Positions 6,066 through 37,184 are shown, counted from the stretch's first letter. The stretch is 64,000 nt of DNA from Pseudomonadota bacterium (GCA_005776585.1 SXOX01000103.1:137410-201409); one strand, 5' to 3'. Notes: generated from the letters alone by a model not told the origin. Translations and numbers: made by a program.

Positions 6066-6173
6066 CGTCGCATCATCGCGGGATTCGGCCAGGCAAGGAA
6101 GCGCGCGCGCCGGCGGCTCGCAATTGCCGTCCTGACGGGTCTCTGCTATCGCTTCGATGCTCGCGGGAGGGAC

Positions 6174-6254
6174 ATGAAACTCGAGAAGGACGAACTGCTA
6201 AGGCATCTCAGCGCCGGCGAGCCGACCATCGACACCGAAGGCAGGTCGCGATGA
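6174..6254 (+). CDS. Possible 26-codon upstream ORF (MKLEKDELLRHLSAGEPTIDTEGRSR) coupled to ptuA
   Basis: GGGAGGG lies at 6165..6171, but only 2-3 nt before the ATG. The stop TGA overlaps the ptuA ATG (ATGA at 6251..6254). Codons are A/T-ending like the ptuAB islet. There is no homology evidence. Confidence 0.2.
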   Translation: MKLEKDELLRHLSAGEPTIDTEGRSR

Positions 6255-13932: not shown

Positions 13933-14043
13933 GGCGGCGGACTCTAGTGAGAGCGAGCCTGCCCGTCAATGGTTTACGGGTGGTGCCCGCGGTCGATTCG
14001 TCGCGCGCTGCGGCGGGATCCGCGGGCAACTTCGGCGACTTTC

Positions 14044-14073
14044 TTGACCCTCTCAACAGGGGACCACCATAAT
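14044..14073 (+). promoter_or_regulatory. Sigma-70-like promoter candidate upstream of pilM
   Basis: TTGACC (14044..14049), an 18-nt spacer, then CATAAT (14068..14073), about 50 nt before the pilM GTG. Confidence 0.45.
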
Positions 14074-14121
14074 CTCCCGGTTGGGCCAGGCCTCAGGCCG
14101 TGTTGGGTCCAAGGAGTGCGC

Positions 14122-15180
14122 GTGGCGAAGAAGAAGCTTGCCGTCGGCCTCGACATCGGCTCGTCGTCGATCAAGGTCGCGCAGGTCAAGGAGACCGGCA
14201 AGGGCTATGAGCTCGCCGCGTTCGACATGGCGCTGCTGCCTCCGGAGGCCGTCGTGGACGGCGCGCTCATGAACTTCCCGGCGATCGTCGAGCACATCAA
14301 AGAGCTCTGGGCGTCGAACAAGATCAAGAGCAAGGACGTTGCGCTCAGCGTGTCCGGTCACTCCGTCATCATCAAGAAGGTCAGCCTGCCCGAGATGACG
14401 CCCGAGGAGCTCGACGAGAGCATCCAGTGGGAGGCCGAGCAGTACATCCCGTTCGACATCAAGGACGTCAACGTCGACGTGCAGATCCTCAACCCCAAGG
14501 CGGGGCAGGGCCAGATGGACGTGCTGCTCGTGGCGGCCAAGAAGGACGTCATCGACGAGTACGTCTCGGTCGCCTTCGAGGCCGGGCTCAAGCCCGTCGT
14601 CGTGGACGTGGACACCTTCTGCATCCAGAACATGTTCGAGATGAACTACGGCTTTCCGGCCAACGAGACGGTCGCGCTCATCAACGTGGGTGCCGCGGTC
14701 ATCAACATCAACGTGGTCTACAACGGGCTGACCAATTTCACGCGCGACATCTCCATGGGCGGCCGCCTTCTGACCGAGGAGATCCAGAAGCAGTTCAACG
14801 TGTCGTTCGAGGAGGCGGAGCACTACAAGACCGGTGGCGACGGCAACTTCTCGAACTCGTCGATTGCACGCGAGGTCAGCAAGCTGTCCGAGCGGGTCTC
14901 CGAGACGCTCGTCACCGAGATTCAGCGCTCGCTCGACTTCTTCGCCGCGACGACCATCAACGCCGACATCAGCCGCATCTTCCTGTCGGGCGGGGCCAGC
15001 CAGCTTCCGCACCTCGTCCGCGCGCTCGAGCGACGGCTCGAGGTGCCCGTCGAGTACGCCAACCCCTTCAAGAACATCATCGTTGACACCGCCAAGTTCG
15101 ACATGGATCGCCTGCACCGTATGGCGCCCATGGCGGCCGTCTCGATCGGCCTTGGGCTCCGCGGGCAGAAGGACAAGTAG
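14122..15180 (+). CDS. pilM: Type IV pilus assembly ATPase-fold protein PilM
   Basis: VAKKKLAVGLDIGSSSIKVAQV is an actin-like ATPase N-terminus. 352 aa from GTG 14122, preceded by AAGGAG (14111..14116). pilN/O/P/Q follow. Confidence 0.9.
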   Translation: MAKKKLAVGLDIGSSSIKVAQVKETGKGYELAAFDMALLPPEAVVDGALMNFPAIVEHIKELWASNKIKSKDVALSVSGHSVIIKKVSLPEMTPEELDESIQWEAEQYIPFDIKDVNVDVQILNPKAGQGQMDVLLVAAKKDVIDEYVSVAFEAGLKPVVVDVDTFCIQNMFEMNYGFPANETVALINVGAAVININVVYNGLTNFTRDISMGGRLLTEEIQKQFNVSFEEAEHYKTGGDGNFSNSSIAREVSKLSERVSETLVTEIQRSLDFFAATTINADISRIFLSGGASQLPHLVRALERRLEVPVEYANPFKNIIVDTAKFDMDRLHRMAPMAAVSIGLGLRGQKDK

Positions 15181-15182
15181 CG

Positions 15183-15893
15183 ATGATTCGCATCAACCTC
15201 CTCCCAGCGAAGGACACCAAGCGCAAGCAATCCAAGGGCCCGTCCGGTCCCGGTGCAGGGCCGCTCGGCACGCTGTTCATCGTGCTCCTGCTGCTGGAGC
15301 TCGGCGGCATGGGCTACTGGTACATGCAGGCGCAGAGCGCGGTCGAGACCGCCGCGGCCGCCGAGGCCGAGGCCAAGAAAGAGGTCGACCAGTTCAAGAA
15401 GATCGACGGCGAGATCAAGGCGCTCGAGGCGCTCGATCTGGAGATGGGCAAGCAGCGCACCGTGTTTCGCGCGCTGGAGAACGGCAAGACCGGCCCGCTC
15501 GATATGCTGCTGTTCCTGTCCTACGTGCTCCGCAGCATCGACACGCAGCTGCCAGAGGACGAACTCAAGGATCTCACCGACATCTGGGGTGAGGACCGCA
15601 AGAAGAACTCGATGGACGACAAGAAGTGGAGCCCGGACCGCGTGTGGATCCGGCGGCTCGTCGACACCGACGGTGCGGTCGTCATCGAGGGCGCGGCCAA
15701 GGACCACGAGGACGTCATGACCTTCATGCGGCGCCTGCGCAGCTCCGTCTTCTTCGAAGGTCTTGACGTTGTCCAGCAAAAGGTGAACGACAAGTCGCCG
15801 CTCGGCCAGTCGTATGTGGAGTTCAAGCTCAAGGCGGAGCTCAACTACGATCCGGAAGGTTTCCCACCCATCGAAGAAGCGGTGAAGAAGTAG
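15183..15893 (+). CDS. pilN: Type IV pilus assembly protein PilN
   Basis: MIRINLLP N-terminus (conserved PilM-binding motif), a single TM helix and a coiled-coil periplasmic part. Gene order supports the call. Confidence 0.85.
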   Translation: MIRINLLPAKDTKRKQSKGPSGPGAGPLGTLFIVLLLLELGGMGYWYMQAQSAVETAAAAEAEAKKEVDQFKKIDGEIKALEALDLEMGKQRTVFRALENGKTGPLDMLLFLSYVLRSIDTQLPEDELKDLTDIWGEDRKKNSMDDKKWSPDRVWIRRLVDTDGAVVIEGAAKDHEDVMTFMRRLRSSVFFEGLDVVQQKVNDKSPLGQSYVEFKLKAELNYDPEGFPPIEEAVKK

Positions 15894-15895: not shown

Positions 15896-16672
15896 ATGGA
15901 CCGATTCAACAAGCTCCCGCCGGTCCAGAAGCTCGCCGTCATGATTGGCACGATGGCTGCGCTGGGCGGGCTCATCTGGTTTGCGCTCATCTCGGACCTG
16001 TCCGACCAAAAGCTCAATCACGAGGGCCAAGTCCAAACGATGAAGGCCGCTGCGGCCAAGCTCAAGGGCCAGCTCTCCAAGGAGAAGATTGAGTCGCGTG
16101 ACAAGGACAAGCAGCGCCTGGAGGACGAGAAGAAGCGCTTCGAGTCCATGCTCCCGACGCAGACCGAGATCGAGAACTTCATCACGGGCATCAGCGAGAC
16201 CGCCAAGAACGCGGGCCTCTCGCTGCTCTCGTTCGAGAAGGGGAACCCGATCGACCAGGACTTCTACGTCGAGATCCCGCTGACCATGGAGGTCAAGGGC
16301 ACCTATCGCGTGCTCATCGGGTTCCTGCGCCAGATGGCCGACAAGGATCGCCGCGTCGTCAACGTCCGCAACCTCAACCTGGAGGTCGCGACGCTGCCGG
16401 TCGAGGACTACCTCAAGAAGTACGAGGATGAGCGCACGCGCTCGGTCCCCGACGGCCAGGCGCCGCGCCCGCTCACGGACGTGCAGAAGCTCATGCAGCT
16501 CGTGCGCGCCAATGAGGAGGCCGTGCAGGAGGGCGCCCAGCTCACCGCCAAGTTCCAGACCTTCGTGTTCATCTACACGGGCAAGCCCGTTCCGCCGGAG
16601 ATGGCGCAGCGCAATGCCCAGAAGCTCGAGGAGCGTCGTCGTCGGCGCCTCACGTCGGTGCGAGTCCTATGA
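15896..16672 (+). CDS. pilO: Type IV pilus assembly protein PilO
   Basis: Single N-terminal TM helix, a coiled coil, and a ferredoxin-like C-terminal region (FYVEIPLTMEVKGTYRVLIGFLRQM). Positioned between pilN and pilP. Confidence 0.85.
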   Translation: MDRFNKLPPVQKLAVMIGTMAALGGLIWFALISDLSDQKLNHEGQVQTMKAAAAKLKGQLSKEKIESRDKDKQRLEDEKKRFESMLPTQTEIENFITGISETAKNAGLSLLSFEKGNPIDQDFYVEIPLTMEVKGTYRVLIGFLRQMADKDRRVVNVRNLNLEVATLPVEDYLKKYEDERTRSVPDGQAPRPLTDVQKLMQLVRANEEAVQEGAQLTAKFQTFVFIYTGKPVPPEMAQRNAQKLEERRRRRLTSVRVL

Positions 16673-17361
16673 AGCACGCGTCCATTACGTCCCTCTTGTT
16701 GCTCGCGCTCGCGCTCGGTGGCCTCGGCTGCGGAGGCGACGAGCCTCAGCAGGCACCTCTTCCCGGCGGACCGGGTGGCCCCAAGCCCGCGGCTGCGGCG
16801 GCCGCCGCGGCGCCCGCTCCGGAGAAGCGCAAGAACCCGAGCTGGGACAAGGTCAAGAAGCACTTCCATGGTCTCCCGAACGATCCGACCGCGGGCTTCG
16901 TCAAGGGGACCATCGGCAACCTGCGCGATCCGTTCGAGCCGCAGCTCGTGAAGTTCGTGCCCAAGGTCACCGTGGCCGAGGACAAGCCGACCAAGCCCGA
17001 GGACAAGCCGGGCGGCATGCTCGACGCGCCCGATCCGCCGCCGGGGCCGCCCGTCGAGAAGACCGAGATGGAGCGCTTTCGGACCCAGGATTACCGCGTG
17101 CTCATGATTCGCTGGGGCACCTCGGTCAACAAGGCCGTCGTCCAGGATCCCGAGGGCAACGAGTTCATCCTCACCAAGGACATGAAGCTCGGCAGCAACA
17201 ACGGCCGAGTCACCGAGATCACGCAGTACGAGGTCCGCGTCCAGGAGGACAATCGCGAGGACCCGATCGTCATCTCGATCGAGCCGGAGATCCTCAAGAT
17301 TCGGGAGACAGAAGGTCTGACTGATCGGCTGTACACCACACAGCGCGGCCGCCAGAAGTAG
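16669..17361 (+). CDS. pilP: Type IV pilus assembly lipoprotein PilP
   Basis: Lipobox LALGGLGC, a Pro/Ala-rich linker and a C-terminal beta domain (VLMIRWGTSVNKAVVQDPEGNEFILTKDMKLG). The ATG overlaps the pilO stop (ATGA). Confidence 0.8.
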   Translation: MKHASITSLLLLALALGGLGCGGDEPQQAPLPGGPGGPKPAAAAAAAAPAPEKRKNPSWDKVKKHFHGLPNDPTAGFVKGTIGNLRDPFEPQLVKFVPKVTVAEDKPTKPEDKPGGMLDAPDPPPGPPVEKTEMERFRTQDYRVLMIRWGTSVNKAVVQDPEGNEFILTKDMKLGSNNGRVTEITQYEVRVQEDNREDPIVISIEPEILKIRETEGLTDRLYTTQRGRQK

Positions 17362-17473: not shown

Positions 17474-17553
17474 CCATGAAATGAACCGGGGGTCCCCTCG
17501 CCTCGCCTTCGAGTCGGGAGCCCCTCAGTCATGGGTTTTTGAGGAGGCTCTTC

Positions 17554-20500
17554 ATGCACCGCCCCCTGCGCTGCTGCGCGCTGCTACTGCTTCTCGCGGC
17601 GCCCGCGAGCTGGGCCGACGACAACCGAATCGCCAAGATCTCGGTTGACGAAGGTCCCAACAACACGGTCGTGACCATCGAAGGTAGCGCGACCCCGACG
17701 TTCACGGTGTTCAAGCTGCTGGATCCCGTGCGGCTGCTCATCGACGTCGTTGGCGGGGACATCACCTCCGTCGCCACCACGATGCAGGTCCGCAATGGCG
17801 TCATCCACGACATCGAGACCGTGCGGTTTGCCTCGAGCGGGCAGAAGGTAGGGCGCATCGTCATCGGTTTCGACCGAGACGCCCCGTACACCGTCAAAGC
17901 CGACGGGACGCGCATTCGCGTCGTCGTCGATGGCACCGACCGGCGCTCTCCCAGCATCGAGAGTGAGAAGGAAGTCCAGAAGCGCATCCAGGCGGTCATC
18001 GAGTCCGAGAAGGCGCTCAAGGCGGAGCTCGGTCAGGCCAAGGACCGCGAGCTCAAGCTGCGCGCGACGCATGAAGCGACCATCGCCGACCAGAAACGGC
18101 TGGCCGAAGCGTTGGCCACGAGCAAGGCCGACGTGGCGCGGCTGAAGCTGGCGCTCGAGGCGCGCACGACGGACGTGGCGAAGGACGCCGACGCCGCGCG
18201 GCTCGCGGAGAAGCGGCTGCTCGAGGAGCAGAAGCGGCTGGCGCAGTCCGAGGTCGATGCGCTCAAGCGCGAGAAGCTGCGTGCGAGCGAGGAGAAGGCC
18301 GCGGTCGACGCTGCGCTCGCGACGGCAGAGGCCCGCCGCACCGCGTTGGAGAAGGCGCTGGCAGCCGAAGAGGCCCGGCGCAAGGCGGCAGAGCAGGCCC
18401 GGCTCGAGGAAGAGGAGCTCGTCCGCAGCGTGCGCAAGGCGCGCGAGGCCGAGGAGAAGCGGCTGGCGGAGGCCAAGAAGCTCGGCGTCGTGCAGGGGGA
18501 CCGCGAGGTCGCGATGAACGACGTGCGCAAGGCCGCCGACGCCTACCGCGGGCGCGCCGAGAAGGCCGAAGCGGAGCTCGAGGCCGCGCGCACGGCGCTG
18601 GCCAAGGCGCGCTCGGACCGGACGGACGGCGCGAAGGTGGGCGCGTTGCAGGACGCACTCGAGCGCAAGGAGCGGGAGCACAAGGCGACGCTGGCGGACC
18701 TCGATCGGGCGCGCAAGGCCGCCGAGGCCAAGGCCACGGAACTGCAACGGGCGTGGGAGCTCGCCAAGGCGGAACTCGCGACTGCGGAGAAGCGGGCCGA
18801 GCGCGAGTCCACGGCCAAGGACGCCGCCGTGGCGCGCGAACGTGCCGCCAAGGAGGCCGCGCTGGCCAAGGCCAAGGCGAAGGGAGACGCCGTCGCCGAG
18901 CTCGAGAAGCGCGAGCAGGAGCGGGTCAAGGCCGAGAAGATCGCGGAGGACGTCGCGACCGCGCGCGCCGTGCTGGCCGAGCAGCTCAAGCTCATCGCGA
19001 GCCGCAAGGCCGATCTCGCCGAGGCGCAGAAGGCGCTCGCGGCCGAGCGGCACGCGCTCGACGAGGTCGTCAAGGCGCGGGCGCGGGCGAAGTCCGACGT
19101 CGAGGCGGCCGCAAAGGCCAAGGGCGCGCTCGATCAGGCGATCCAGGCGCGGTCGACCGAGATCGCCCGTCTCGAGGGTCGACTCCAGAAGGCCGCGGCG
19201 TCGCGCGGCACGCTCGATCGGGACCTTGCCAAGCAGGAGCAGGCCGTCCTCGCCGTGGGTGCGCGGCTCGCGCGCGAGAAGGAGGACCTTGCGGCGGTCC
19301 TGGCGCAGAAGTCGCTGTTCAAGAAAGAGATCAACGCGCTCAAGGCCGAGGTCGGGAAGTCGCGGGCAGAGCTCTCCGCCATCGAGAAGGTGCTCGCCAA
19401 GGACAAAGACGAGGTCAAGCGCCTCGCCGCCGAGCGACTGGCGACCGAGAAGCGCGTGCAGACGCTGACAGCCGACCTCGCCCGCCTCGAGCGCGGGATC
19501 CATGACGGCGGAGACCGTCTCGCGCTCCAGCGGCTGCTGGATGAGCGCAAGGCCGAGATCGTCACGCTCAAGCGGTCGCTCGACAACGCGAAGTCCGAGG
19601 GCGGCGCCGAGCGCCTGGCTCAGGAGAAGCGGCTCGAGGCTGCGCTTGCCACCGCGCGGGCCGAGGCCGCCAAGACCAAGGAGGGGCGCGAGAAGATCGC
19701 GGCGCTCGAGAAGTTCCTGGCCGCCCAGAAGGCGGCGCTCAAGAACGCCGAGACCGGACAGATCGCGTCTTCGGCCGACAAGAAGGCCGCGGAGAAGCGG
19801 CTTGCGCAGCGCGAGGCTCAGGTGAAGGAGCTCGAGGCGGCGCTCGGAGCGGCGACCGCGCAGAAGCGGGAGGCCGTGGATCTGGCGCGGCTCAAGGACA
19901 AGGAGCTCAAGCACGCGCTCGCCCAAGCGACGAAGGAGTCCGGCAAGACCCAGAAGGACGCGGCCAAGGCAATCGCGGCCGCCAAGACAGAGCTTGCGAC
20001 GGCCACGGCGCGGCTCGCCAAGATCGAGTCTCACCTCAAGGAGGCTACGGCCTTGCAGCTCGCGACCGAGAAGAAGCTAGGCGTCGCTCAGCACGACCTC
20101 ACCACGGAGCGTCACCAGCACGCGGACACGCGCAAGGAGCTGGCGCGCACGGCGGAGCAGCGTGCGGCGGCGCTCGCTGCGGCCGAGAAGCTCGACAAGG
20201 CGCTCGGCACCGCGCGTGCGGAGCTGGCGGAGTCCCGGCAGCGGATTCAGGGGCTGTCGGCGCGTCAGACGGCAGCCGATCGCGAGATCGCACGGCTCGA
20301 GCGGTCGCTGGAGCAGGCTCGCGCCCAGGGAGGCAACGCCGGCTCGGCGGCGAAGGCGCTCGAGGCGGAGCTGGCCAAGGCGCGGAGCGAGCGCAAGGCG
20401 GCGGAAGAGGCGCTCGCGGCCGATCGGGCTCGGAGCGCGCGACAGGTCGCCGAGGCCAAGAGCGCGCTCGACAAGGCCGAGCAGCGGCGCAAGGCGCTCG

Positions 20501-23500
20501 AGGGCGAGCTAGAGACGGCCTCGGCCAAGCTCAGCGACGTCATCGCCCGGGAGCGCAAGGCTACGGCGGCGGCGCAGACGGCGGTCAAGGCCGAGCGCGC
20601 CCGCCACGAGAAGGTGCTGGCCGACAAGCTTGCGGCGATCGCCGCGCTGGAGAACGAGCTGCGCACGAAGGACGCTTCGGCGACGGCGGCCGCCGAGCTT
20701 GCGCGCCTGGCTGAGCGGGCAACTGCGCTCGCGACGGAGGCGGCGGAGGCCAAGAAGAGCCTGGCCAAGGCCGCTCGGGACGCCAACAAGCTGCGGACCG
20801 ACCGCGACAAGGCCAGGGCCGAGACGGCTCGATTGCGGACAGAGCTCACGGCGGCCCGGTCCAAGGGCAGCGAGCGCAAGGATCTCGCCGAGGCGCTCGC
20901 CGCGTCGGAGAAGGCCAAGGCGCGGCTGGAAGCGCTGCTCGCCACCGCCGCGCAAGAGCGCAAGAAGGACCGCGCCGAGGCACACGCCAGCGTCAAGGCA
21001 CTGGAGACGCGTCGCTCCGAGCTCGAAAAGCAGCTCGCGACCGACCGAGCCATGCGCGTCGCCGTCGAGGCGGACCTCGCGCAGGCGCGCAAGGGGCTCG
21101 GCTCGGCGACGGTCTCCCAGGCCCAGCTCACGGCGCTCGAGGCCGAGCGCGATCGGCTCACCAAGGCGTTGGCCACGCGCGACGCGACGGTCGCCGGGCT
21201 CGAGCGCGAGCTGGTCAAGGCACGCGCCGTCGCCGACGTGCAGACGGAGCTCGCCCGCGCCCTCGCGGACGTCGCCGAGGCGAAGAAGGAGACGAGCGCG
21301 GTCAAGGCGGAGCTGGCGAAGGCTGCCGCACGGCTAGAGGCCTTGCAGCACGACAAGCAAGCCGCCGAGCGGGAGGTCGCGCGCCTTCAGAAAGCGGTGG
21401 CGCTCGCGCCGCGCGGTGATGATGCCGCGCTGCGACGGGAGCTCGAGTCCGCGCGGGGTCAGGTCGCGCAGCTCGAGCGTCAGCTCTCGACGGTCAAGGA
21501 CAGCTCACGCGAGCTCGAGTCGCTCAAGACCAAGCTGGGCGAGGCCAATGACCGCATCGCGTCGCTCGTGCAAAAGAACGTGGACGCCACCGAGCGCGTC
21601 ACGTCACTCGAGGCCGCAGTCGCCGCCGCCAAGCGGTCGGGACAGCCGGACTCGGCGCTTCAGCGCGACTTGGCCGAGGCCCGGACACAGCTTGCCGCGC
21701 TCGGCAAGGCGCTCGACACCGAGCGCCAGGCGCGCCATGACGAGAAGGCGCAGGCCTCGGCGCAGATTCGGGACCTGGAGTCGCGCAAGACGACCCTCGA
21801 GCGGGAGCTGAGCGAGCGGCGCGCAGAGGCGGCCCGGATGGCCGCCAAGGACGCGGGGGCCGAGCGTGCGGCGCTCGAACGCGCCGTCGCGGACAAGACG
21901 GAGGCCATCGGACGGCTCGAGAAGTCGCTGTCGGAGGCGCGCGCTCGGGAGGGGGCCGCCGCCGAGCTCGAGTCGCGCCTCGTCGAGGCGCGCGATGCTG
22001 AGCGCAAGGCGTTGGCCAAGGCCGACGATGCGGAGCGGCGCGCCAAGTCCGCCGAGTCGCAGCTCGGCGAGGTGAAGGCACGCGTGGCGGTCCTCGAGAA
22101 GGGCAAGGCCGAGGCGGACGCCGAGGCGCAGCGGCTCGCTACTGCACTGAAGGATCGGGAAAAGCCGGCGACCAAGGACATCGCAACCAAGGACGCCGCG
22201 AAGGAGACGAGCAAGCTCACCCGGATCACCAACGTGGCGTTCAACGAGAAGAACAACGTCAGCCGCCTCGAGATCGAGCTCGATGGCTCCGACGCCACCT
22301 ACGAGGTGGTCGAGAAGACCGACCAACGCATCGTGCTGGTGGTCGACAAGGCGCGCATCCCGAAGGTGCTCGAGCGGCGGCTCGACGTGAGCGACTTCTA
22401 CGGCCCGGTGCGAATGGTCTCGACCTACGCCGATCCGCAGGACGAGTCCAAGGTGCGTGTCGTCGTGGACCTCGCCGAGTCCGTGCGGAACACGCTGGCC
22501 AAGAAGGGCAACCGGCTCGTGTGGGAGTTCATGAATGGCGAGCGCGTTCACTCCGGCACTGCGGTGGCCAAGGCGGACACAAAGTCAGACACTCGGGCTG
22601 AGAGGCCCGGCAAGGCGAAGACCCGCGAGCCGTGGACCAAGGAGCCCAACGTCCGCTACGAGCCGACCGCGGTCGGCGGCGACCAGACCGGGCCGACCGG
22701 CGGTGGTGGCGTGAACATGCCCGGCGGTGGCACCGACTTCGGCGTGCTCGATCCGTTCCCGAAGCGCGCCCAAAAGCGCAAGTACAAGGGCCGCAAGATC
22801 AACCTGACCATCAAGGACGCCGACATCCAGCAGGTGCTCACGTTCCTGGCGCGTGAGGGCGAGGTCAACATCATCGCGTCCGAGAACGTCCAGGGTGCCG
22901 TGACCGTCCACCTGAAGGACGTGCCGTGGGACCTGGCGCTCGACATGATCCTCAAGTCCAAGGGCCTCGACTACGTCGTGGAGGACGGCGTCTATCGCGT
23001 GGCGCCGGTTGATGTCATCCAAAAGGAGTTCGACCAGGAGCTCGAGAAGCGCAAGAAGCTCACGGAGCTCAAGCGCCTCGTGGTGAAGCTGGTCACGGTG
23101 AACTACGCCGACGCCGACAACCTGAAGGCGCGGCTGAAGGACATCCTGTCGCCCAAGGGCACCATCGACACCGACGTGCGCACCAATACGCTCATCATCA
23201 AGGACATCGAGGAGCACGTCATGGCCGCCGAGGATCTGGCGCGCCGGCTCGACACGCAGACGCCGCAGGTGCTCATCGAGGCGCGCATCGTGGAGGCCTC
23301 CAGCAACTTTGCGCAGGACGTGGGCATCCAGTGGGGCGGCAACTACACGGCCTCGCCTGCCTTCGGCAACGAGACCGGGCTGGTGTTTCCGGGCATCCTG
23401 GGTCTCTCGGGTGCGGCGGACGACGTCAACGCGCCCTCCACGGGGTTGCTCGACCCGACTCCTGGTTACGCTGTAAATCTTCCCGCTGCCGTTGGCGGCG

Positions 23501-24075
23501 GTAAGGGCGGTGCCCTCGGCCTGACGCTCGGCACGCTCACGGGGTCCGGCAGCATCAGTCTGCGTCTCTCGGCGGCGGAGGAGCGCGGCACGGTGAAGAT
23601 CATCAGCTCGCCGCGCATCGCGACCCTCGACAACACCGAGGCGACCATCAACCAGGGCATCTCGATCCCGATCTCGGTCGTCAGCTCGCTCGGCGTCAAC
23701 ACGCAGTTCTTCAACGCGTCGCTCGAGCTGCGCGTCAAGCCGCACGTGACGCAGGACGGGCACGTGGCGATGAAGATCGACATCACGAAGAACGAGCCGA
23801 ACTTCAGCCAGACGGCTGCCGCCGGTAACCCGACCATCGAGCGCAAGGAGGCGCACACGCAGCTGCTGGTCAAAGACGGCGACACCGCGGTCATGGGCGG
23901 CATCTTCACCCGCAACTCGTCACAGTCGTTCAAGAAGGTGCCAGGTCTCGGCGACATCCCGTTCCTCGGCTGGCTGTTCAAGAGCCGCGTCTCGACGGAC
24001 AAGCGCACCGAGCTCATCCTCTTCATCACCCCGCGAATCATCAACCGCGCCGCCGCTCGCGTGCGCGTGGACTGA
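17554..24075 (+). CDS. pilQ: Type IV pilus secretin PilQ with a giant (~1400 aa) coiled-coil insertion between two AMIN domains
   Basis: ATG 17554 follows GAGGAGG (17541..17547). The signal peptide ends ASWA-DD. AMIN-like domain 1 is about 17620..17940. A continuous A/E/K/R/L-rich helical region spans about 17960..22200. AMIN-like domain 2 is about 22215..22530. The N0/N1 and secretin core follow (INLTIKDADIQQVLTFLA...VLIEARIVEAS...ISSPRIATLDN...VPGLGDIPFLGWLFK...ELILFITPRII). Confidence 0.9.
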   Translation: MHRPLRCCALLLLLAAPASWADDNRIAKISVDEGPNNTVVTIEGSATPTFTVFKLLDPVRLLIDVVGGDITSVATTMQVRNGVIHDIETVRFASSGQKVGRIVIGFDRDAPYTVKADGTRIRVVVDGTDRRSPSIESEKEVQKRIQAVIESEKALKAELGQAKDRELKLRATHEATIADQKRLAEALATSKADVARLKLALEARTTDVAKDADAARLAEKRLLEEQKRLAQSEVDALKREKLRASEEKAAVDAALATAEARRTALEKALAAEEARRKAAEQARLEEEELVRSVRKAREAEEKRLAEAKKLGVVQGDREVAMNDVRKAADAYRGRAEKAEAELEAARTALAKARSDRTDGAKVGALQDALERKEREHKATLADLDRARKAAEAKATELQRAWELAKAELATAEKRAERESTAKDAAVARERAAKEAALAKAKAKGDAVAELEKREQERVKAEKIAEDVATARAVLAEQLKLIASRKADLAEAQKALAAERHALDEVVKARARAKSDVEAAAKAKGALDQAIQARSTEIARLEGRLQKAAASRGTLDRDLAKQEQAVLAVGARLAREKEDLAAVLAQKSLFKKEINALKAEVGKSRAELSAIEKVLAKDKDEVKRLAAERLATEKRVQTLTADLARLERGIHDGGDRLALQRLLDERKAEIVTLKRSLDNAKSEGGAERLAQEKRLEAALATARAEAAKTKEGREKIAALEKFLAAQKAALKNAETGQIASSADKKAAEKRLAQREAQVKELEAALGAATAQKREAVDLARLKDKELKHALAQATKESGKTQKDAAKAIAAAKTELATATARLAKIESHLKEATALQLATEKKLGVAQHDLTTERHQHADTRKELARTAEQRAAALAAAEKLDKALGTARAELAESRQRIQGLSARQTAADREIARLERSLEQARAQGGNAGSAAKALEAELAKARSERKAAEEALAADRARSARQVAEAKSALDKAEQRRKALEGELETASAKLSDVIARERKATAAAQTAVKAERARHEKVLADKLAAIAALENELRTKDASATAAAELARLAERATALATEAAEAKKSLAKAARDANKLRTDRDKARAETARLRTELTAARSKGSERKDLAEALAASEKAKARLEALLATAAQERKKDRAEAHASVKALETRRSELEKQLATDRAMRVAVEADLAQARKGLGSATVSQAQLTALEAERDRLTKALATRDATVAGLERELVKARAVADVQTELARALADVAEAKKETSAVKAELAKAAARLEALQHDKQAAEREVARLQKAVALAPRGDDAALRRELESARGQVAQLERQLSTVKDSSRELESLKTKLGEANDRIASLVQKNVDATERVTSLEAAVAAAKRSGQPDSALQRDLAEARTQLAALGKALDTERQARHDEKAQASAQIRDLESRKTTLERELSERRAEAARMAAKDAGAERAALERAVADKTEAIGRLEKSLSEARAREGAAAELESRLVEARDAERKALAKADDAERRAKSAESQLGEVKARVAVLEKGKAEADAEAQRLATALKDREKPATKDIATKDAAKETSKLTRITNVAFNEKNNVSRLEIELDGSDATYEVVEKTDQRIVLVVDKARIPKVLERRLDVSDFYGPVRMVSTYADPQDESKVRVVVDLAESVRNTLAKKGNRLVWEFMNGERVHSGTAVAKADTKSDTRAERPGKAKTREPWTKEPNVRYEPTAVGGDQTGPTGGGGVNMPGGGTDFGVLDPFPKRAQKRKYKGRKINLTIKDADIQQVLTFLAREGEVNIIASENVQGAVTVHLKDVPWDLALDMILKSKGLDYVVEDGVYRVAPVDVIQKEFDQELEKRKKLTELKRLVVKLVTVNYADADNLKARLKDILSPKGTIDTDVRTNTLIIKDIEEHVMAAEDLARRLDTQTPQVLIEARIVEASSNFAQDVGIQWGGNYTASPAFGNETGLVFPGILGLSGAADDVNAPSTGLLDPTPGYAVNLPAAVGGGKGGALGLTLGTLTGSGSISLRLSAAEERGTVKIISSPRIATLDNTEATINQGISIPISVVSSLGVNTQFFNASLELRVKPHVTQDGHVAMKIDITKNEPNFSQTAAAGNPTIERKEAHTQLLVKDGDTAVMGGIFTRNSSQSFKKVPGLGDIPFLGWLFKSRVSTDKRTELILFITPRIINRAAARVRVD

Positions 24076-24097: not shown

Positions 24098-24646
24098 ATG
24101 AGCGCTACCTCCCCACGACACCTGGTGCTGGTCGGCCTGATGGGCGCCGGCAAGTCGACCGTTGGCCGCCTCGTGGCCACGCGGCTGGCGAGGCCGTTCA
24201 TCGACCTCGACGCCGAGATCGTCGCTCGTGCGGGCGCGACCGTCGCCGAGCTGTTTCGCAGCCGTGGCGAGGAGGGGTTTCGCGACATCGAGGCCCAGAT
24301 GCTCGCCGCCGTCTTGGACCGGAGCGAGCCGCACGTCGTGGCGGCGGGCGGCGGCGCGCTGAGCCGACCGGAGAGCCTGGCGCGTGTCGTTCGGCAGTCG
24401 GACATGGTCTGGCTCCGCGTGAGACCCGAGGTCGCCGCCGCGCGATGCCGGTCACAGGGTGTCGGCGTGCGTCCGCTGCTCGACCACGTCGAGCCGGTCG
24501 ACCGGCTGCGTGCGTTGCTCCAGGTCCGCGAGCCGGCGTACTCCAAAGCGCCGCTCGTCCTGGACACCGACGACGCCACGCCCGACGTGATCGCAGAGCT
24601 GCTGCTGAGTCGCCTCCGCCTCGGCATGAGCGCGGTCGAGGCATGA
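24098..24646 (+). CDS. aroK: Shikimate kinase
   Basis: LVLVGLMGAGKSTVGR is the Walker A motif, followed by FIDLD and FRDIE. 182 aa. Confidence 0.9.
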   Translation: MSATSPRHLVLVGLMGAGKSTVGRLVATRLARPFIDLDAEIVARAGATVAELFRSRGEEGFRDIEAQMLAAVLDRSEPHVVAAGGGALSRPESLARVVRQSDMVWLRVRPEVAAARCRSQGVGVRPLLDHVEPVDRLRALLQVREPAYSKAPLVLDTDDATPDVIAELLLSRLRLGMSAVEA

Positions 24647-26961: not shown

Positions 26962-27417
26962 GTGACTACACTGCTCAAGATCGCCGTCGTGCACGGCCCG
27001 AACCTGAACTTGCTCGGGACGCGAGAGCCGTCGACGTACGGGCGCGCGACCTTGGCGGACATCGACCGCGAGCTCGTGGCGCTGGGCCGTCAGGAGAACA
27101 CCGAGGTGGCGTGCGCCCAGGCCAACGGCGAAGGCGAGCTCGTCGCGCTGATTCAGTCGCTTGGCGCGACGCACGACGGCCTCGTTCTCAACCCTGCGGC
27201 GTACACGCACACCAGCGTCGCCATTCGCGATGCCGTCCTGGCCGTCGGGAAGCCGGCCGTCGAGGTCCACCTGAGCAACGTCCATGCGCGTGAGCCGTTT
27301 CGCCACCATTCGTTTCTGGCCGACATCGTCGTGGGCCGCGTGATGGGCTTCGGGGCGCACAGCTATCGCCTCGGCCTGCTCGGGCTGCTGGCGCACCTGC
27401 GCGGGATCGGAGCGTGA
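26962..27417 (+). CDS. aroQ: Type II 3-dehydroquinate dehydratase
   Basis: KIAVVHGPNLNLLGTREPSTYG, NGEGELV, LNPAAYTHTSVAIRDA and EVHLSNVHAREPFRHHS are canonical AroQ motifs. The start is GTG 26962 (151 aa) or GTG 26914 (167 aa). Confidence 0.85.
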   Translation: MTTLLKIAVVHGPNLNLLGTREPSTYGRATLADIDRELVALGRQENTEVACAQANGEGELVALIQSLGATHDGLVLNPAAYTHTSVAIRDAVLAVGKPAVEVHLSNVHAREPFRHHSFLADIVVGRVMGFGAHSYRLGLLGLLAHLRGIGA

Positions 27418-27424
27418 CGTCGCC

Positions 27425-29008
27425 ATGACCATGCCTGAGGCTCAGAAGATCTCGGCGGAGGCCAAGCGGCTGCTCGAGCGCGGCCAGTTTCGCAAGGCGT
27501 TGCCGCTCTTTCAGCGCGCTGCCGAGGAAGATCCCAACGATCTTCGTCATTTGCTGCGCGTCGGGGACGTGCTGCATCGCATGGGGGACCTGGGCCCGGC
27601 GCTCACGACGTACCTCGACGCCGCACGCAAGCTCACCGATCACGGCTTCCTGCTCCGGGCGGTCGCAGTCTATCGGCAGATGCTGCGCATCGATCCAGGC
27701 CTGCATCCGGTGCACGCGGAGCTGGCGCGCGTCTACGCGATGATCGGGCTCGTCAACGACGCCATCTCGCAATACCAGGAGGGCATCCGGGTCCTCCAGG
27801 CCCGGGGGCGCCCCCGCGACCGGCTCGAGCTCATTCGCGAGCTGCTGGAGCTCGATCCGGACAACGTTCGCGCGCGTGTGCGGCTGGCCGAGGACTTCCT
27901 CGCCGAGGGGGCGGTCGCCGAGGGCGTCACCGAGTTGCGCCTCTGCTGCGAGACCCTCAACCGCATCGGCCGCCATGAGGAGTTCCTGCGCGTGGCGGAG
28001 CGCGTCCTGCACCACGAGCCGGAGGACCTCATCTTGAGCCGGCAGCTCGCGGAGACCTACCTCGAGCACCAGGATCCGCAGCGGGCCTTGCCGCGCATCC
28101 AGGCGTGCTTTCGCGCTCAGCCCAACGACCCCGACCTCCTGAGGCTGTTGGCGACCTGTTTTCGCCTGCTCGGCCAGTCCCACAAGGCCGTCACCGTGCT
28201 CAAGGAGCTGGCACGCCTGCATGAGCGGCAAGGACGGCTGGAGGCGATTCCGGCGCTCTTCGAGGAGATCCTCACGGTGGATCCGAGCGATCAATCCGCG
28301 CGGCGCATCGTGGGCGACCGGATGAAGCGCACAACCGGGCCTGCCGAGCTCGGCTTCGACGAGATCGCGTTCGACGAGCTCGATGACCGCGACCTGTCGA
28401 CCGGCAGTCGGACGCCGTCCCAGATGCGGCGGCTGCGCGATCACACCCCCACGCCGGCGGCCTTCGACAACTTGGACCAGCTCGTCGAGATGGTCGCGTC
28501 CGAGCCCGTCTCCAACGCCGACATCCGCCTGCCGGACCGCCCCGCCGTCAGCCGCGAGGCGACGCGTCCGCCCAAGCCGCCTCCGGTCACGCCCAAGGCG
28601 CCCCTCGTGCCGCCGCCCCTGCCGCCGCCGTCGCGCGTCGAGGCCAAGCCCGAAGCGGCGGCGCCCGTGTCCATCACGCCCGCGGAGCTGCGATCCCAGG
28701 GACCGGCCCGCGTCACTCGGACGACGGACAACTCGTTGGAGTTCGAGCTCGACGTCGGTCAGCTGGACACCGGGTCTCTCGGCGGGCCATCGGGCGACAA
28801 CGATCGTGCGGCGGGTGGCGCGCCTTCGCCACTGGAGTCGTCGCTCGCGGGTGACGTGCCAATCGAGCTCGCCGGCGAGCTGCGCGAGTTCGACTTCTAT
28901 CTCCGAAATGAGCTCCCCGACGCAGCCCGGCTCGTGCTCGAGGAGCTGCCGGCGGAGTTCCATAATCATCCGGAGGTCTTGCGACGCCGGATCATGCTCC
29001 CCCGCTAG
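27425..29008 (+). CDS. TPR-repeat protein with Pro-rich linker and FimV-C-terminal-like tail
   Basis: The N-terminal ~290 aa form TPR-like helical hairpins. A Pro/acidic low-complexity region follows. The C-terminal ELREFDFYLRNELPDAARLVLEELPAEF is reminiscent of the FimV C-terminal motif (inference). The gene starts 7 nt after aroQ. Confidence 0.7.
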   Translation: MTMPEAQKISAEAKRLLERGQFRKALPLFQRAAEEDPNDLRHLLRVGDVLHRMGDLGPALTTYLDAARKLTDHGFLLRAVAVYRQMLRIDPGLHPVHAELARVYAMIGLVNDAISQYQEGIRVLQARGRPRDRLELIRELLELDPDNVRARVRLAEDFLAEGAVAEGVTELRLCCETLNRIGRHEEFLRVAERVLHHEPEDLILSRQLAETYLEHQDPQRALPRIQACFRAQPNDPDLLRLLATCFRLLGQSHKAVTVLKELARLHERQGRLEAIPALFEEILTVDPSDQSARRIVGDRMKRTTGPAELGFDEIAFDELDDRDLSTGSRTPSQMRRLRDHTPTPAAFDNLDQLVEMVASEPVSNADIRLPDRPAVSREATRPPKPPPVTPKAPLVPPPLPPPSRVEAKPEAAAPVSITPAELRSQGPARVTRTTDNSLEFELDVGQLDTGSLGGPSGDNDRAAGGAPSPLESSLAGDVPIELAGELREFDFYLRNELPDAARLVLEELPAEFHNHPEVLRRRIMLPR

Positions 29009-29014
29009 GTCGCG

Positions 29015-29875
29015 ATGCGAACCCCGCCTCGCGACCAGGACACCGACGAGATTCGCGCGCGCGAGCGGGCCCTCGATCTCCGCGAGCAGGAGCTGTCGTC
29101 GCTCGACAGGCTCGTGGACTCGCGCGTCGAGGCCGTCACGCGGCGGCTCGGCGTCACGCGCGAGCTGGAGGACTACGTCGCGGAGCGGACGCGCACCATG
29201 CGCGCGCGCATCGAGCGGCTGGGCGTGGACGTCGAGCTGCCCGACTTCGCCACGTCGGTAGAAGCGGCGCAGACGCTCACCTCGTCGGTCCCGGGATGGG
29301 ACGAGCGTCTGGAGGTCGTCACGGCGCGCGAGGCGCTGTGCGCGCGTCGGGCGGCTTCTGCCGAGGACCGGCGGCTCTGGGCCGATGAGCTCGACGCTGT
29401 CGTGGCCGCCCGTGAGGCCGAGCTGCTCGAGCGCGAACAGGCGTTGGCGGGTCTGCTCCGTCGTGCGATGGGCGCCGCCGCGGACTCGCGCTTCACGCCG
29501 CCGCACGGTGTCCCCGCAGCGGTCGAGAGTGGCGCATCACGCCGCCAGCACCGGCGCATCGGCATCAAGGCGCACCTCGCCTATGGCTCAGCGCACGAGT
29601 TCCTCTACGCCGGCGAGATGGAGAACCTCAGCCTCGGTGGCCTGTTCGTCGCCACCGACAACGTGCTCCCTGTGGGGCGCGAGGTGGATCTCTCGCTCAC
29701 GTTTCCGGATACCGCGCCATTGACGCTCCACGCCGTCGTCGTATGGCGGCGTGAGGCAGATGGGCGCGGCCAGCCGGCCGGCCTCGGCGTCCGGTTCGTG
29801 GACCTCGATCCGGCGACCGAGGAGGCGATCGAATGGCACCTGTCTCGCGCGGAGGCAGTCGCGGACGGCCGCTAG
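29015..29875 (+). CDS. Coiled-coil protein with C-terminal PilZ (c-di-GMP-binding) domain
   Basis: The PilZ signature is RRQHRRIG (RxxxR) followed by ENLSLGGLFV (D/NxSxxG). The N-terminal ~170 aa are helical. 286 aa. Confidence 0.8.
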   Translation: MRTPPRDQDTDEIRARERALDLREQELSSLDRLVDSRVEAVTRRLGVTRELEDYVAERTRTMRARIERLGVDVELPDFATSVEAAQTLTSSVPGWDERLEVVTAREALCARRAASAEDRRLWADELDAVVAAREAELLEREQALAGLLRRAMGAAADSRFTPPHGVPAAVESGASRRQHRRIGIKAHLAYGSAHEFLYAGEMENLSLGGLFVATDNVLPVGREVDLSLTFPDTAPLTLHAVVVWRREADGRGQPAGLGVRFVDLDPATEEAIEWHLSRAEAVADGR

Positions 29876-29971
29876 ACGCGGTCGCGAGCCACGCAAGTTT
29901 TGCGCAGTCTCCGCAGCGAGGGCCACACGCCCCGAAGGCCGTCCACGCACGCGTTCGAAGTGACTTTCACT

Positions 29972-30000
29972 TTGGATCCCCGAGCCATGTCCCGTACTAT
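29972..30000 (+). promoter_or_regulatory. Sigma-70-like promoter candidate upstream of the giant adhesin gene
   Basis: TTGGAT (29972..29977), a 17-nt spacer, then TACTAT (29995..30000), in the 206-bp gap after the PilZ gene. Confidence 0.35.
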
Positions 30001-30081
30001 CGAGCATGGTACGCAGGTTGCAGCCTTCGTCCCTGGGTCGCGCGGCACGAAGCCGTGGCAGCTGCCGAGAGGAGAAAATCC

Positions 30082-37140: not shown

Positions 37141-37184
37141 TTGTTCAAAAAAATCCGCAGGCTCCCGCCGACACGACAGAATTT

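What the first reader, a model, noticed from the sequence alone, without database searches (positions are those of the whole stretch)
17960..22200. PilQ secretin carrying about 1400 aa of uninterrupted coiled coil between two AMIN domains
The pilQ ORF is continuous for about 2173 codons. It reads signal peptide, AMIN-like domain, then about 1400 residues built almost only from A/E/K/R/L/T/D/Q with essentially no Pro or aromatic residues, then a second AMIN-like domain, N0/N1 and a canonical secretin core. Characterised PilQ proteins are roughly 700-900 aa, and myxobacterial ones carry tandem AMIN domains without such a spacer. As a single extended helix (about 0.15 nm per residue) the insert would measure about 200 nm, far longer than a periplasm. 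It must therefore fold back, bundle with the other subunits of the secretin multimer, or lie along the peptidoglycan. It could be a fused scaffold or ruler with a FimV/TsaP-like role, or an entirely new periplasmic structure attached to the T4P machine.
Basis: partly seen in the sequence, partly recalled or inferred. Interest (0 to 1): 0.85.

Follow-up and report, generated by a model that had tools for sequence, protein, structure and literature searches.

The report
Giant coiled-coil type IV pilus secretin
The outer-membrane pore protein of a type IV pilus machine (PilQ) here carries a real, conserved coiled-coil rod of about 1,400 residues (about 200 nm) between its two cell-wall-binding domains, a feature shared by many uncultured myxobacterial relatives and not found described in the literature searched.

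Summary
Window 17554-24075 (+) is one 2173-codon pilQ in a pilMNOPQ-aroK-aroB cluster. It reads signal peptide, AMIN1, about 1400 aa of A/E/K/R/L-rich helix with 3 Pro and 4 aromatics, AMIN2, N0, N1 and secretin. The insert is a true heptad coiled coil (a=Leu, d=Ala/Leu). It is jointed rather than uninterrupted: about 17 helices of 25-126 aa separated by short hinges, mostly at Gly.

It is neither an assembly artefact nor unique. Thirteen independent MAG loci carry the same single-ORF architecture with coils of 480-1630 aa. Of 75 secretin-bearing cluster representatives related through AMIN1, 53 have a coil of 60-1520 aa. All named ones are uncultured Myxococcota, annotated only as "PilQ". An ~80-aa "neck" helix next to AMIN1 is conserved family-wide. 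The rest of the coil is a fast-evolving spacer of variable length, and a close relative shows 21-bp (one-heptad) tandem repeats.

Best reading (inferred): neighbouring subunits of the secretin ring pair their inserts into long, flexible, parallel coiled-coil tethers. These carry AMIN1 to distant peptidoglycan and anchor or position the pilus machine. A compact fold-back bundle is the main rival. This is a new variant of a known kind.

The parts
13969..15180 (+). pilM
   Evidence: PF11104 PilM_2, E 4e-74
15183..15893 (+). pilN
   Evidence: PF05137 PilN
15896..16672 (+). pilO
   Evidence: PF04350 PilO
16669..17361 (+). pilP
   Evidence: Weak PF04351 match. Position is conserved in relatives.
17554..24075 (+). 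pilQ, 2173 codons plus stop
   Evidence: Continuous ORF. TIGR02515 scores 414 bits against a cut-off of 284.
17554..17616 (+). Signal peptide (residues 1-21, read from the sequence)
   Evidence: MHRPLRCCALLLLLAAPASWA followed by DD. No predictor was run.
17623..17952 (+). AMIN1 (residues ~24-133)
   Evidence: Pfam AMIN, second stretch. 59-68% identical in close relatives. Family motif PTFTVFKLxDPxRL.
17959..18198 (+). Conserved 'neck' helix (residues ~136-215)
   Evidence: Conserved in 13 full-length family members, including short-coil ones. Lies in an unbroken 91-aa heptad run.
18199..22149 (+). Variable jointed coiled coil (residues ~216-1532)
   Evidence: Heptad periodicity. 17 predicted helices in all, including the neck. 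11-35% identity with indels to close relatives in mid-coil.
22219..22533 (+). AMIN2 (residues 1556-1660)
   Evidence: Pfam AMIN at 1560-1656. AF2 beta-sandwich, pLDDT 89-97.
22549..22773 (+). Gly/Lys/Thr/Pro-rich disordered linker (residues ~1666-1740)
   Evidence: Composition. pLDDT about 30.
22795..23268 (+). N0 (STN) and N1 (Secretin_N) domains
   Evidence: PF07660, PF21305 and PF03958. AF2 alpha/beta folds with pLDDT >85.
23269..24072 (+). Secretin core
   Evidence: PF00263, E 1e-46. Foldseek matches V. cholerae PilQ 6w6m (E 3e-26) and P. aeruginosa PilQ 6ve2. Sequence match to M. xanthus PilQ 3jc8, E 1e-149.
24098..24646 (+). aroK (conserved downstream neighbour)
   Evidence: PF01202. Synteny in relatives.
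27344..29008 (+). TPR protein resembling the N-terminal part of SgmX
   Evidence: NF052243 scores 188 bits over profile positions 4-287, below the full-length cut-off. Syntenic in relatives.
29009..29875 (+). PilZ-domain protein
   Evidence: PF07238. Syntenic in relatives.

Best explanation
Shown:
- This is the type IVa pilus secretin PilQ of an uncultured member of Myxococcota.
- The linker between its first and second peptidoglycan-binding AMIN domains has been replaced by a heptad coiled coil of about 1400 aa.
- The coil has two parts. The first is an ~80-aa 'neck' next to AMIN1 that is conserved across the family. The second is a long, fast-evolving, hinge-segmented spacer whose length differs widely between lineages.

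Inferred:
- A secretin is a ring of 12-15 identical, parallel subunits. The inserts of neighbouring subunits therefore most likely zip into parallel, in-register two-stranded (possibly three-stranded) coiled coils.
- This would give each pilus machine several jointed tethers. Each would have a contour length of about 200 nm, or roughly 50 nm end-to-end if the hinges are free, and would end in a small cluster of AMIN1 domains.
- The tethers are far longer than the periplasm is wide, so they must run along the peptidoglycan layer. AMIN2 would hold the secretin locally while AMIN1 grips wall material at a distance.
- The result would be guy-rope anchoring and/or positioning of the machine relative to septal or polar wall landmarks, spreading retraction load over a wide area.
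- Length probably changes through heptad-unit duplication. This is harmless in a homo-oligomer, because every chain changes alike.
For: Identity:
- Pfam and NCBIfam domains, PDB sequence and fold matches to PilQ, and pilMNOP/aroK synteny.

Coiled coil:
- A 3.5-residue Fourier peak more than 20 SD above shuffles.
- a=L73/A28/V23 and d=A76/L59.
- AF2 helix in two runs, which agree on the breaks at 1037-1043, 1104-1108 and 1182-1188.
- Excess of i,i+3 and i,i+4 salt bridges.

Conservation:
- 13 full-length loci with coils of 480-1630 aa. All show locally significant heptad periodicity, near-zero Pro and few aromatics (<=1.7%).
- 53 of 75 representatives have the coil.
- The tree shows a deep clade in which every member has >=480 aa.
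- The neck is conserved and the middle is not alignable.

Parallel homo-oligomer:
- g-to-e'(+5) charge pairs are 35 favourable and 21 unfavourable, against 29/29 expected (p about 0.045).
- Arg/Lys/Glu make up 19% of a positions, typical of two-stranded coils (own knowledge).
- Adjacent helices are not length-matched, as a strict zig-zag would require (p=0.40).
- Extreme indel tolerance.

Growth mechanism:
- 21- and 63-bp tandem arrays in the coil of the closest relative, L023.
- Weak traces of old internal duplications in the window: 57-65 bits against 50.7+-2.8 in heptad-preserving shuffles.

AMIN function:
- AMIN domains target M. xanthus PilQ to septal/polar peptidoglycan (PMC10653833).
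Against: - No multimer prediction or experiment was possible, so oligomeric state and strand orientation are unproven.
- Leu at a with Ala at d also suits antiparallel 'Alacoil' packing (own knowledge).
- The AF2 monomer model gives low-RMSD local Foldseek matches to helical hairpins (colicin R-domain, chemoreceptor, AcrA). These matches are not significant, but they suggest the model folds back.
- The charge-pair signal is marginal.
- Mid-coil sequence conservation is close to the compositional background, so part of the length could be neutral.
- In one marine relative an in-frame TAA separates AMIN1 from the coil. That lineage may do without the link.
- Indels between close relatives are not enriched for multiples of 7, although the alignments are unreliable.
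Confidence: 0.45

Rival explanations
1. Fold-back bundle. Successive 60-125-aa helices reverse at the Gly hinges and pack antiparallel within one chain, or between neighbouring chains. This would give a compact helical domain 10-19 nm long that fits the periplasm and enlarges or stiffens the periplasmic part of the machine.
For: Breaks occur every ~75 aa, mostly at Gly. In the C-terminal third the helix lengths are fairly uniform (62, 60, 73, 96, 73, 64, 98 aa) with pLDDT 75-94. There are local Foldseek matches to antiparallel hairpins at RMSD 2-4 A. The Leu(a)/Ala(d) asymmetry suits mixed a-d' layers (own knowledge).
Against: Over the first 13 helices, adjacent lengths range from 25 to 126 aa and are not matched (p=0.40). 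A hairpin bundle should resist one-sided indels, yet length varies freely. The Foldseek hits are non-significant (best E 0.3). AF2 monomers tend to bury hydrophobic seams by folding back.
Confidence: 0.25
2. Inter-machine cross-linker. Coils from different secretin rings pair with one another. This would weave pilus machines into a periplasmic lattice that sets their clustering and spacing at the pole.
For: The length (tens to 200 nm) is on the scale of spacing between machines. The Leu/Ala core is compatible with antiparallel pairing. The conserved neck could be a docking site.
Against: There is no direct evidence. Within one ring the local concentration of identical parallel chains should out-compete pairing between rings (inference). 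The poorly conserved middle argues against specific register-dependent docking.
Confidence: 0.1
3. Largely neutral, run-away low-complexity expansion. Heptad-unit slippage inflates a tolerated linker. Only 'a flexible helical spacer' is selected, and the extreme length has no specific function.
For: 21-bp tandem arrays occur in L023. Mid-coil identity is 11-35%. The length distribution is continuous from 60 to 1630 aa. A relative carries an in-frame stop. Neisseria PilQ has polymorphic repeats at the same inter-AMIN site (PMC3441751).
Against: Every member of a deep clade keeps >=480 aa. Reading frame, heptad phase, and exclusion of Pro and aromatics are kept over >1000 codons in many lineages. 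The window itself has no recent DNA repeats. Making 12-15 copies of a 230-kDa subunit per machine is costly.
Confidence: 0.12
4. Assembly or annotation artefact: a chimeric contig, or a frameshift that falsely fuses an AMIN-coil gene to pilQ.
For: Coils are hard to assemble. L003 has a 100-N gap, L023 has AMIN1 and the C-terminus in different frames at 6x coverage, and gene callers split or truncate many homologues.
Against: Four independent MAG contigs have uninterrupted ORFs of 2005-2367 aa, and nine more have 1220-1950 aa, all with the same architecture. The window has no repeats, gaps or frame breaks. GC3 is 0.90 throughout the ORF.
Confidence: 0.02

Closest known systems
Myxococcus xanthus PilQ (PDB 3jc8/3jc9; 901 aa, three AMIN domains)
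   Same: N0-N1-secretin region is homologous (E 1e-149). AMIN domains sit at the N-terminus. Same pilMNOPQ context. Its AMIN domains bind septal/polar peptidoglycan (PMC10653833).
   Different: M. xanthus has three closely spaced AMIN domains and no coiled coil. Here there are two AMIN domains separated by about 1400 aa of coiled coil.
Neisseria PilQ small basic repeats between the B1 and B2 (AMIN-type) domains
   Same: A polymorphic low-complexity insertion at exactly the same site, between the first and second beta/AMIN domain, which affects pilus formation (PMC3441751).
   Different: The Neisseria insertion is a few octapeptide repeats (tens of residues) and not a coiled coil. Here the insert is 20-fold or more longer and heptad-based.
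OmpM / SlpA outer-membrane tethers (SLH domain, coiled-coil stalk, OM beta-barrel)
   Same: Same logic: a wall-binding domain, a homo-oligomeric coiled coil, then an outer-membrane barrel (PMC10628300 and PMC9388160, abstracts listed).
   Different: Unrelated domains (SLH and porin against AMIN and secretin). Their stalks span the periplasm over tens of nm (own knowledge). This coil is 5-10 times too long to do that, and a second wall-binding domain follows it.
AMIN fused to a TolA-like charged helix in delta-proteobacteria (de Souza et al. 2008, architecture viii)
   Same: An AMIN domain followed by a long charged alpha-helical region (PMC2572700). Possible stand-alone AMIN-coil-AMIN proteins were seen here (P0121, P0221).
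   Different: That paper lists it as an architecture separate from PilQ. The present insert has a clear hydrophobic heptad seam and no Pfam match to TolA.
FimV / TsaP peptidoglycan-binding accessories of T4P secretins
   Same: A possible shared role of anchoring or positioning PilQ on peptidoglycan.
   Different: These are separate proteins that use LysM domains. No LysM, FimV or TsaP domain is present here. The role would be built into PilQ through AMIN1 and the coil.
Thermus / Deinococcus PilQ with extra periplasmic ring domains
   Same: Lineage-specific N-terminal elongation of a T4P secretin. The D. radiodurans entry 8co1 (DR_0774) appears among the PDB sequence hits.
   Different: Those add globular N-type ring domains stacked along the pilus axis (own knowledge). 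Here the addition is a fibrous coiled coil.

Membership tests
Type IVa pilus secretin PilQ (TIGR02515) | C-terminal secretin domain (PF00263) | tested here: met
   E 1.2e-46 at residues 2007-2163. Foldseek matches PilQ 6w6m and 6ve2.
Type IVa pilus secretin PilQ (TIGR02515) | N0 (STN) and N1 (Secretin_N) periplasmic domains | tested here: met
   PF07660, PF21305 and PF03958. AF2 folds are confident.
Type IVa pilus secretin PilQ (TIGR02515) | Family HMM score above the curated cut-off | tested here: met
   414.2 bits against 284.35.
Type IVa pilus secretin PilQ (TIGR02515) | N-terminal AMIN domain(s) and a signal peptide | tested here: met
   Two AMIN stretches. The signal-peptide-like N-terminus was read from the sequence; no predictor was run.
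Type IVa pilus secretin PilQ (TIGR02515) | Gene immediately downstream of pilM, pilN, pilO and pilP | tested here: met
Type IVa pilus secretin PilQ (TIGR02515) | Forms a heat-stable 12-15-mer in the outer membrane and is needed for piliation | not testable with these tools
   Requires biochemistry or genetics.
Heptad coiled coil | 3.5-residue hydrophobic periodicity with apolar a/d positions | tested here: met
   Power 4.44 against 0.26+-0.17 in shuffles. a=Leu-rich, d=Ala/Leu-rich.
Heptad coiled coil | Predicted alpha-helix with few helix breakers | tested here: met
   AF2 helix over ~139-1532 with short breaks. 3 Pro in 1410 aa.
Heptad coiled coil | Defined oligomeric state and strand orientation | tested here: inconclusive
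   g-e' charge pairing gives p about 0.045 for a parallel in-register arrangement. Hairpin-like local Foldseek hits are not significant.
Single alpha-helix / TolA domain II type charged helix | Charged helix without a hydrophobic seam, or sequence similarity to TolA | tested here: not met
   A clear a/d hydrophobic seam is present. No TolA family appears among Pfam hits at E<=0.01.
SMC-type antiparallel arm | Family HMM above cut-off, with head and hinge domains | tested here: not met
   TIGR02168 scores 41 bits against a cut-off of 567, which is a compositional match only.
FimV / TsaP | LysM peptidoglycan-binding domain | tested here: not met
   No LysM hit.
OmpM / SlpA tether | SLH domain and porin-type barrel | tested here: not met
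   No SLH or porin domain. The analogy is one of design only.

The most novel reading that the evidence does not exclude
The coils of the 12-15 subunits form long radial or networked fibres running in the periplasm along the sacculus. This would be a previously unseen periplasmic 'rigging', nucleated by the conserved neck helix, that ties type IV pilus machines to distant wall landmarks or to each other. Its evolutionarily tunable length (30-240 nm) would set where pili sit, how many there are, and how much retraction force the envelope can bear.
Probability: 0.3. Interest if true: 0.85.

Novelty: new variant of a known kind. Interest (0 to 1): 0.66.

Why it matters
Secretins are among the best-studied outer-membrane machines. 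Their N-terminal variation is thought to consist of globular ring or AMIN domains with short linkers.

A conserved coiled coil of 500-1600 residues built into PilQ means that a whole clade of environmental Myxococcota assembles pilus machines with 12-15 fibrous arms, each far longer than the periplasm is wide. This raises three testable questions:
- How are pilus machines anchored against forces above 100 pN?
- How is their polar position and spacing set?
- Can the periplasm host extended fibrous scaffolds?

It also has practical consequences. Gene callers and assemblers often truncate or split these genes. Surveys of T4P systems in MAGs will therefore under-report or misjudge PilQ.

Tried and rejected
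- A word-indexed homology search with AMIN1 plus the coil start was swamped by coiled-coil words and gave one useless hit. AMIN1 alone found only 2 hits through the word index. The exhaustive HMMER search was needed.
- Foldseek of the single-sequence coil model found nothing significant.
- The PDB sequence search found nothing for the insert.
- SMC and 'helix-rich' NCBIfam hits and the LXG Pfam hit fall far below their cut-offs and are compositional.
- Zig-zag test: adjacent helix lengths are not matched.
- Heptad-quantised indel test: no enrichment of multiples of 7, but the alignments are unreliable.
- Recent DNA repeats or misassembly signatures in the window: none.
- Foreign origin of the insert: rejected. 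The higher GC (72-74% against ~65%) follows from Ala/Arg/Glu codons, and GC3 is uniform.
- Promoter and terminator scan across the operon: the 9 terminator-like sites are no more than shuffles give (7.6+-3.1). The two promoter-like sites lie at the pilM start, not inside pilQ.
- A second secretin or other coil-rich ORFs in the window: none.
- Literature searches for a coiled-coil or giant PilQ: none found.
- Cultured carriers: none among 20 clusters looked up.

Full report
**1.

The window contains one continuous ORF, 17539..24075 on the + strand. From the ATG at 17554 it encodes 2173 residues, beginning with a Sec-type signal-like sequence, MHRPLRCCALLLLLAAPASWA|DD.

Pfam finds two AMIN stretches (the better one at 1560-1656), STN/N0 (1753-1818), Secretin_N (1844-1905) and Secretin (2007-2163). 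NCBIfam TIGR02515 'type IV pilus secretin PilQ' scores 414 bits against a cut-off of 284. The C-terminal 430 residues match M. xanthus PilQ (3jc8) at E 1e-149.

An AlphaFold2 model of residues 974-2173, built with 79 homologues, gives confident AMIN2, N0, N1 and secretin folds. Foldseek places that model with V. cholerae and P. aeruginosa PilQ.

pilM, pilN, pilO and pilP lie immediately upstream, and aroK and aroB immediately downstream. Further downstream come aroQ, a TPR protein resembling the N-terminus of SgmX, and a PilZ protein.

**2. The insert is a real coiled coil, but a jointed one**

Residues 136-1545 are A 25%, E 13%, L 11%, R 11%, K 10%. They contain only 3 Pro, 4 aromatics, no Cys and 42 Gly.

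- The hydrophobicity spectrum of the whole 1410-aa stretch has a single sharp peak at exactly 3.5 residues. Its power is 4.44, against 0.26+-0.17 (maximum 1.25) in shuffles.
- A seven-state register tracker assigns Leu (73), Ala and Val to position a, and Ala (76) and Leu (59) to position d. It finds 23 register shifts and unbroken runs of up to 175 aa.
- Intrahelical i,i+3 and i,i+4 opposite-charge pairs are strongly enriched.
- Two AlphaFold2 runs, one from a single sequence (residues 26-1225) and one with an alignment (974-2173), predict helix almost throughout. They agree on the breaks in their overlap.

Together the two models give 17 helices of 25-126 aa (mean about 77 aa, or about 11 nm) joined by hinges of 1-9 residues.

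The contour length is about 200 nm. If the hinges were free, the rms end-to-end distance would be about 50 nm (my arithmetic from those helix lengths). 'Uninterrupted' is therefore the one word of the finding that needs correcting.

**3. It is not an artefact**

The window's gene has no DNA tandem repeats of note, no gaps and no frame breaks. GC3 is 0.90 along the ORF. The raised GC of the insert follows from its Ala/Arg/Glu codons.

The decisive evidence comes from other assemblies. A scan of one genome per species found 19 related Myxococcota-type loci and one distant Pseudoalteromonas pilQ; the window itself is not in that collection, and its best match is 72% identical.

Reading the frame through each match gives uninterrupted PilQ ORFs of these lengths:
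- L001: 2112 aa
- L004: 2367 aa
- L005: 2233 aa
- L013: 2005 aa
- L016: about 1950 aa
- Eight further loci: 1220-1520 aa

Each has AMIN1, then a helix-former-rich segment nearly free of Pro and aromatics (480-1630 aa), then AMIN2, N0, N1 and secretin. Synteny (pilMNOPQ-aroK-aroB-x-aroQ-TPR-PilZ) is conserved. All these coils show locally significant heptad periodicity and the same composition.

Assembly problems do occur in relatives. L003 has a 100-N gap in the coil. L023, at 6x coverage, has AMIN1 and the C-terminus in different frames. Many database entries are N-terminally truncated. This explains why the architecture is easy to miss.

**4. It is the long end of a large, unrecognised family**

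An exhaustive HMMER search with AMIN1 against 1.84 billion cluster representatives gave 157 hits at E<=1e-10. Among the best 150, 75 contain the secretin domain. Of those 75, 53 have a coil-like segment starting right after AMIN1:

| Coil length | Representatives |
|---|---|
| 60-200 aa | 5 |
| 200-500 aa | 25 |
| 500-1000 aa | 16 |
| >=1000 aa | 7 |

A neighbour-joining tree of the C-terminal domains places coil-less PilQs (for example Sorangium, 791 aa) basally. Next comes a grade with mostly 180-640 aa. Last is a derived clade in which every member has >=480 aa. The window's own subclade has 1356-1627 aa, and other long versions arose elsewhere in the tree.

Every member that carries a name is a metagenome or MAG protein from 'Myxococcales', 'Myxococcota' or 'Deltaproteobacteria bacterium', annotated simply as PilQ. 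No cultured organism appeared.

Full-text searches found no description of a coiled-coil or giant PilQ. The nearest statements in the literature are two:
- De Souza et al. list AMIN fused to a TolA-like helix in delta-proteobacteria as an architecture separate from PilQ.
- Berry et al. note that Neisseria PilQ carries polymorphic 'small basic repeats' between its two AMIN-type domains, calling this 'unprecedented within the secretin family'.

**5. Anatomy of conservation**

Against its three closest full-length relatives, the window shows the following identities:

| Region | Identity |
|---|---|
| AMIN1 | 51-62% |
| First ~200 aa of coil | 41-49% |
| Mid-coil | 11-35%, with many indels |
| Last ~150 aa of coil | 36-52% |
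| C-terminal domains | 65-85% |

Against distant family members, homology covers AMIN1 plus the first 140-290 aa of coil, then resumes only at AMIN2.

An alignment of 13 sequences shows a family-wide conserved ~80-aa 'neck' directly after AMIN1. Its consensus is VDGtxRxxPxL...EAKRxxxAIxRERxLLxxLxaARxxEExL...ARxEAERL. The coil therefore consists of a conserved neck and a variable spacer.

On how the spacer grows, there are two observations:
- The closest relative (L023) has 21-bp and 63-bp tandem arrays, that is one and three heptads, spanning about 500 bp of its coil.
- The window has no recent repeats. It does have internal similarities slightly above a heptad-preserving shuffle control: 57-65 bits against 50.7+-2.8, maximum 55.8.

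**6. How it most likely works**

The following points are shown or established:
- The protein is a PilQ.
- AMIN domains bind peptidoglycan and target M. xanthus PilQ to septal and polar wall (PMC10653833).
- Secretins are rings of 12-15 parallel identical subunits (PDB entries).

The rest is inferred. Identical chains emerge side by side from the ring, so they will most easily pair in parallel and in register. Five observations fit this:
- The marginal excess of favourable g-e' charge pairs (35 favourable to 21 unfavourable, against 29 to 29 expected; p about 0.045).
- The 19% Arg/Lys/Glu at a positions, a feature of two-stranded coils (own knowledge).
- The free drift of length, because an indel is automatically matched in a homo-oligomer.
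- The lack of length matching between adjacent helices.
- The conserved neck, which could act as the nucleation or trigger segment beside AMIN1.

The result would be several hinged tethers per machine, each tipped with two or three AMIN1 domains. At 50-200 nm they cannot stand across a periplasm of about 30 nm, so they must lie along the sacculus. That suggests a wide-footprint anchor ('guy-ropes') against retraction load, and/or a tether to a wall landmark that fixes where machines sit.

I put 0.45 on this mechanism. I am near-certain about the identity and architecture.

**7. Rivals**

- *Fold-back bundle (0.25).* Helices reverse at the Gly hinges and pack antiparallel into a domain 10-19 nm long. 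The Leu(a)/Ala(d) asymmetry, the fairly uniform helix lengths in the last third, and low-RMSD but non-significant local Foldseek matches to colicin, chemoreceptor and AcrA hairpins all favour it. The unmatched helix lengths and the indel tolerance argue against it.
- *Cross-links between machines (0.10).* Untested.
- *Largely neutral repeat inflation (0.12).* Poor mid-coil conservation, the tandem arrays and the Neisseria precedent support it. A marine lineage (L021/L022, from two metagenomes) in which an in-frame TAA sits exactly at the AMIN1/coil junction also supports it. Universal retention of >=480 aa in a deep clade, with frame and heptads intact, argues against it.
- *Artefact (0.02).*

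**8. Comparison with known systems and membership**

It is a member of the PilQ family; all testable defining features are met (see the membership table).

It is not any of the following:
- A member of FimV/TsaP: no LysM domain.
- TolA-like or a single-alpha-helix domain: a hydrophobic seam is present and there is no TolA match.
- SMC-like: 41 bits against a cut-off of 567.
- OmpM/SlpA: no SLH domain or porin.

In design it most resembles OmpM/SlpA, which combine a wall-binding domain, a coiled coil and an outer-membrane barrel (PMC10628300 and PMC9388160). It differs in that its coil is far longer than the periplasm is wide and a second wall-binding domain follows it. The Neisseria small basic repeats show that the inter-AMIN site tolerates polymorphic insertions.

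**9. Verdict**

The finding is real and robust, and is not described in the literature I could search. It is not unique to this genome: it is a clade-wide PilQ architecture, with the window near the long extreme.

The novelty class is a new variant of a known kind. Interest is 0.66. A T4P specialist would be surprised, and clear experiments follow from the finding. Against that, the function is inferred, the orientation of the coil is unresolved, and no cultured carrier is known.

Noticed in passing
L022 10430-10432 (same in L021 9430-9432): In a marine relative seen in two JGI metagenomes, an in-frame TAA sits exactly at the AMIN1/coil junction (...KLEKKRA*EALERV...). The gene is called as a 143-aa AMIN1 ORF plus a 1452-aa ORF that lacks a signal peptide. 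Read through, it would be 1605 codons. This could be a pseudogene, a genuine split or a readthrough.
   Followed up: partly
L023 3230-3727: The closest relative (73% identical in the C-terminal region by tblastn, 74% by BLASTP) has tandem arrays of 21 bp and 63 bp (one and three heptads) inside its coil. AMIN1 (26-376) and the C-terminus (4750-6606) are in different frames at 6x coverage. The gene caller placed two ORFs on the opposite strand over the coil.
   Followed up: partly
L003 (JADMJS010000470.1), inside the coil: A 100-N scaffold gap interrupts the coil of this orthologue, which NCBI annotates as 'partial'. Coil regions appear to break assemblies.
   Followed up: no
window 17584-20034 (-): An 816-aa ORF runs antisense to the coil. 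It is almost certainly a by-product of GC-rich Ala/Glu/Arg codons and could mislead gene callers, as happened in L023.
   Followed up: no
window 27344-29875 (+): A TPR protein matches the first 287 positions of the SgmX (type IV pili formation) model at 188 bits. A PilZ-domain protein follows it. Both are syntenic with pilQ-aroK-aroB-x-aroQ in most relatives.
   Followed up: partly
window 25581-26837 (+): A 418-aa ORF between aroB and aroQ has no Pfam or NCBIfam match. An ORF without Pfam hits occupies the same position in relatives (346-369 aa in L021-L023).
   Followed up: no
window 29755-49555 (+): A run of very large predicted surface proteins. It includes a 2447-aa protein with FG-GAP, Laminin_G_3, VWA and MopE-type metal-binding motifs, an OM beta-barrel protein, an IgGFc_binding-domain protein, a 1525-aa TIG-repeat protein, and BNR/MAM-like proteins.
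   Followed up: no
P0121 (447 aa), P0221 (490 aa): Proteins with AMIN, a 200-250-aa charged coil and a second AMIN end right after that second AMIN (...F[PR]RPG[RK]). They may be stand-alone AMIN-coil-AMIN proteins, as in the 'AMIN + TolA-like helix' architecture of de Souza 2008, rather than PilQ fragments.
   Followed up: no
coils of window, L001, L004, L013, L022: Net charge of the coil differs widely between orthologues, from -25 (L006) to +165 (L004). The window is +44 and L005 is +4. No pattern was found.
   Followed up: no
window 13969-14150 and 24445-24646: The listed PilM ORF has about 59 residues before the PilM_2 domain, and a promoter-like site lies at 14044-14073 inside it. The listed aroB ORF overlaps aroK by about 200 nt. 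Both true starts are probably further downstream.
   Followed up: no
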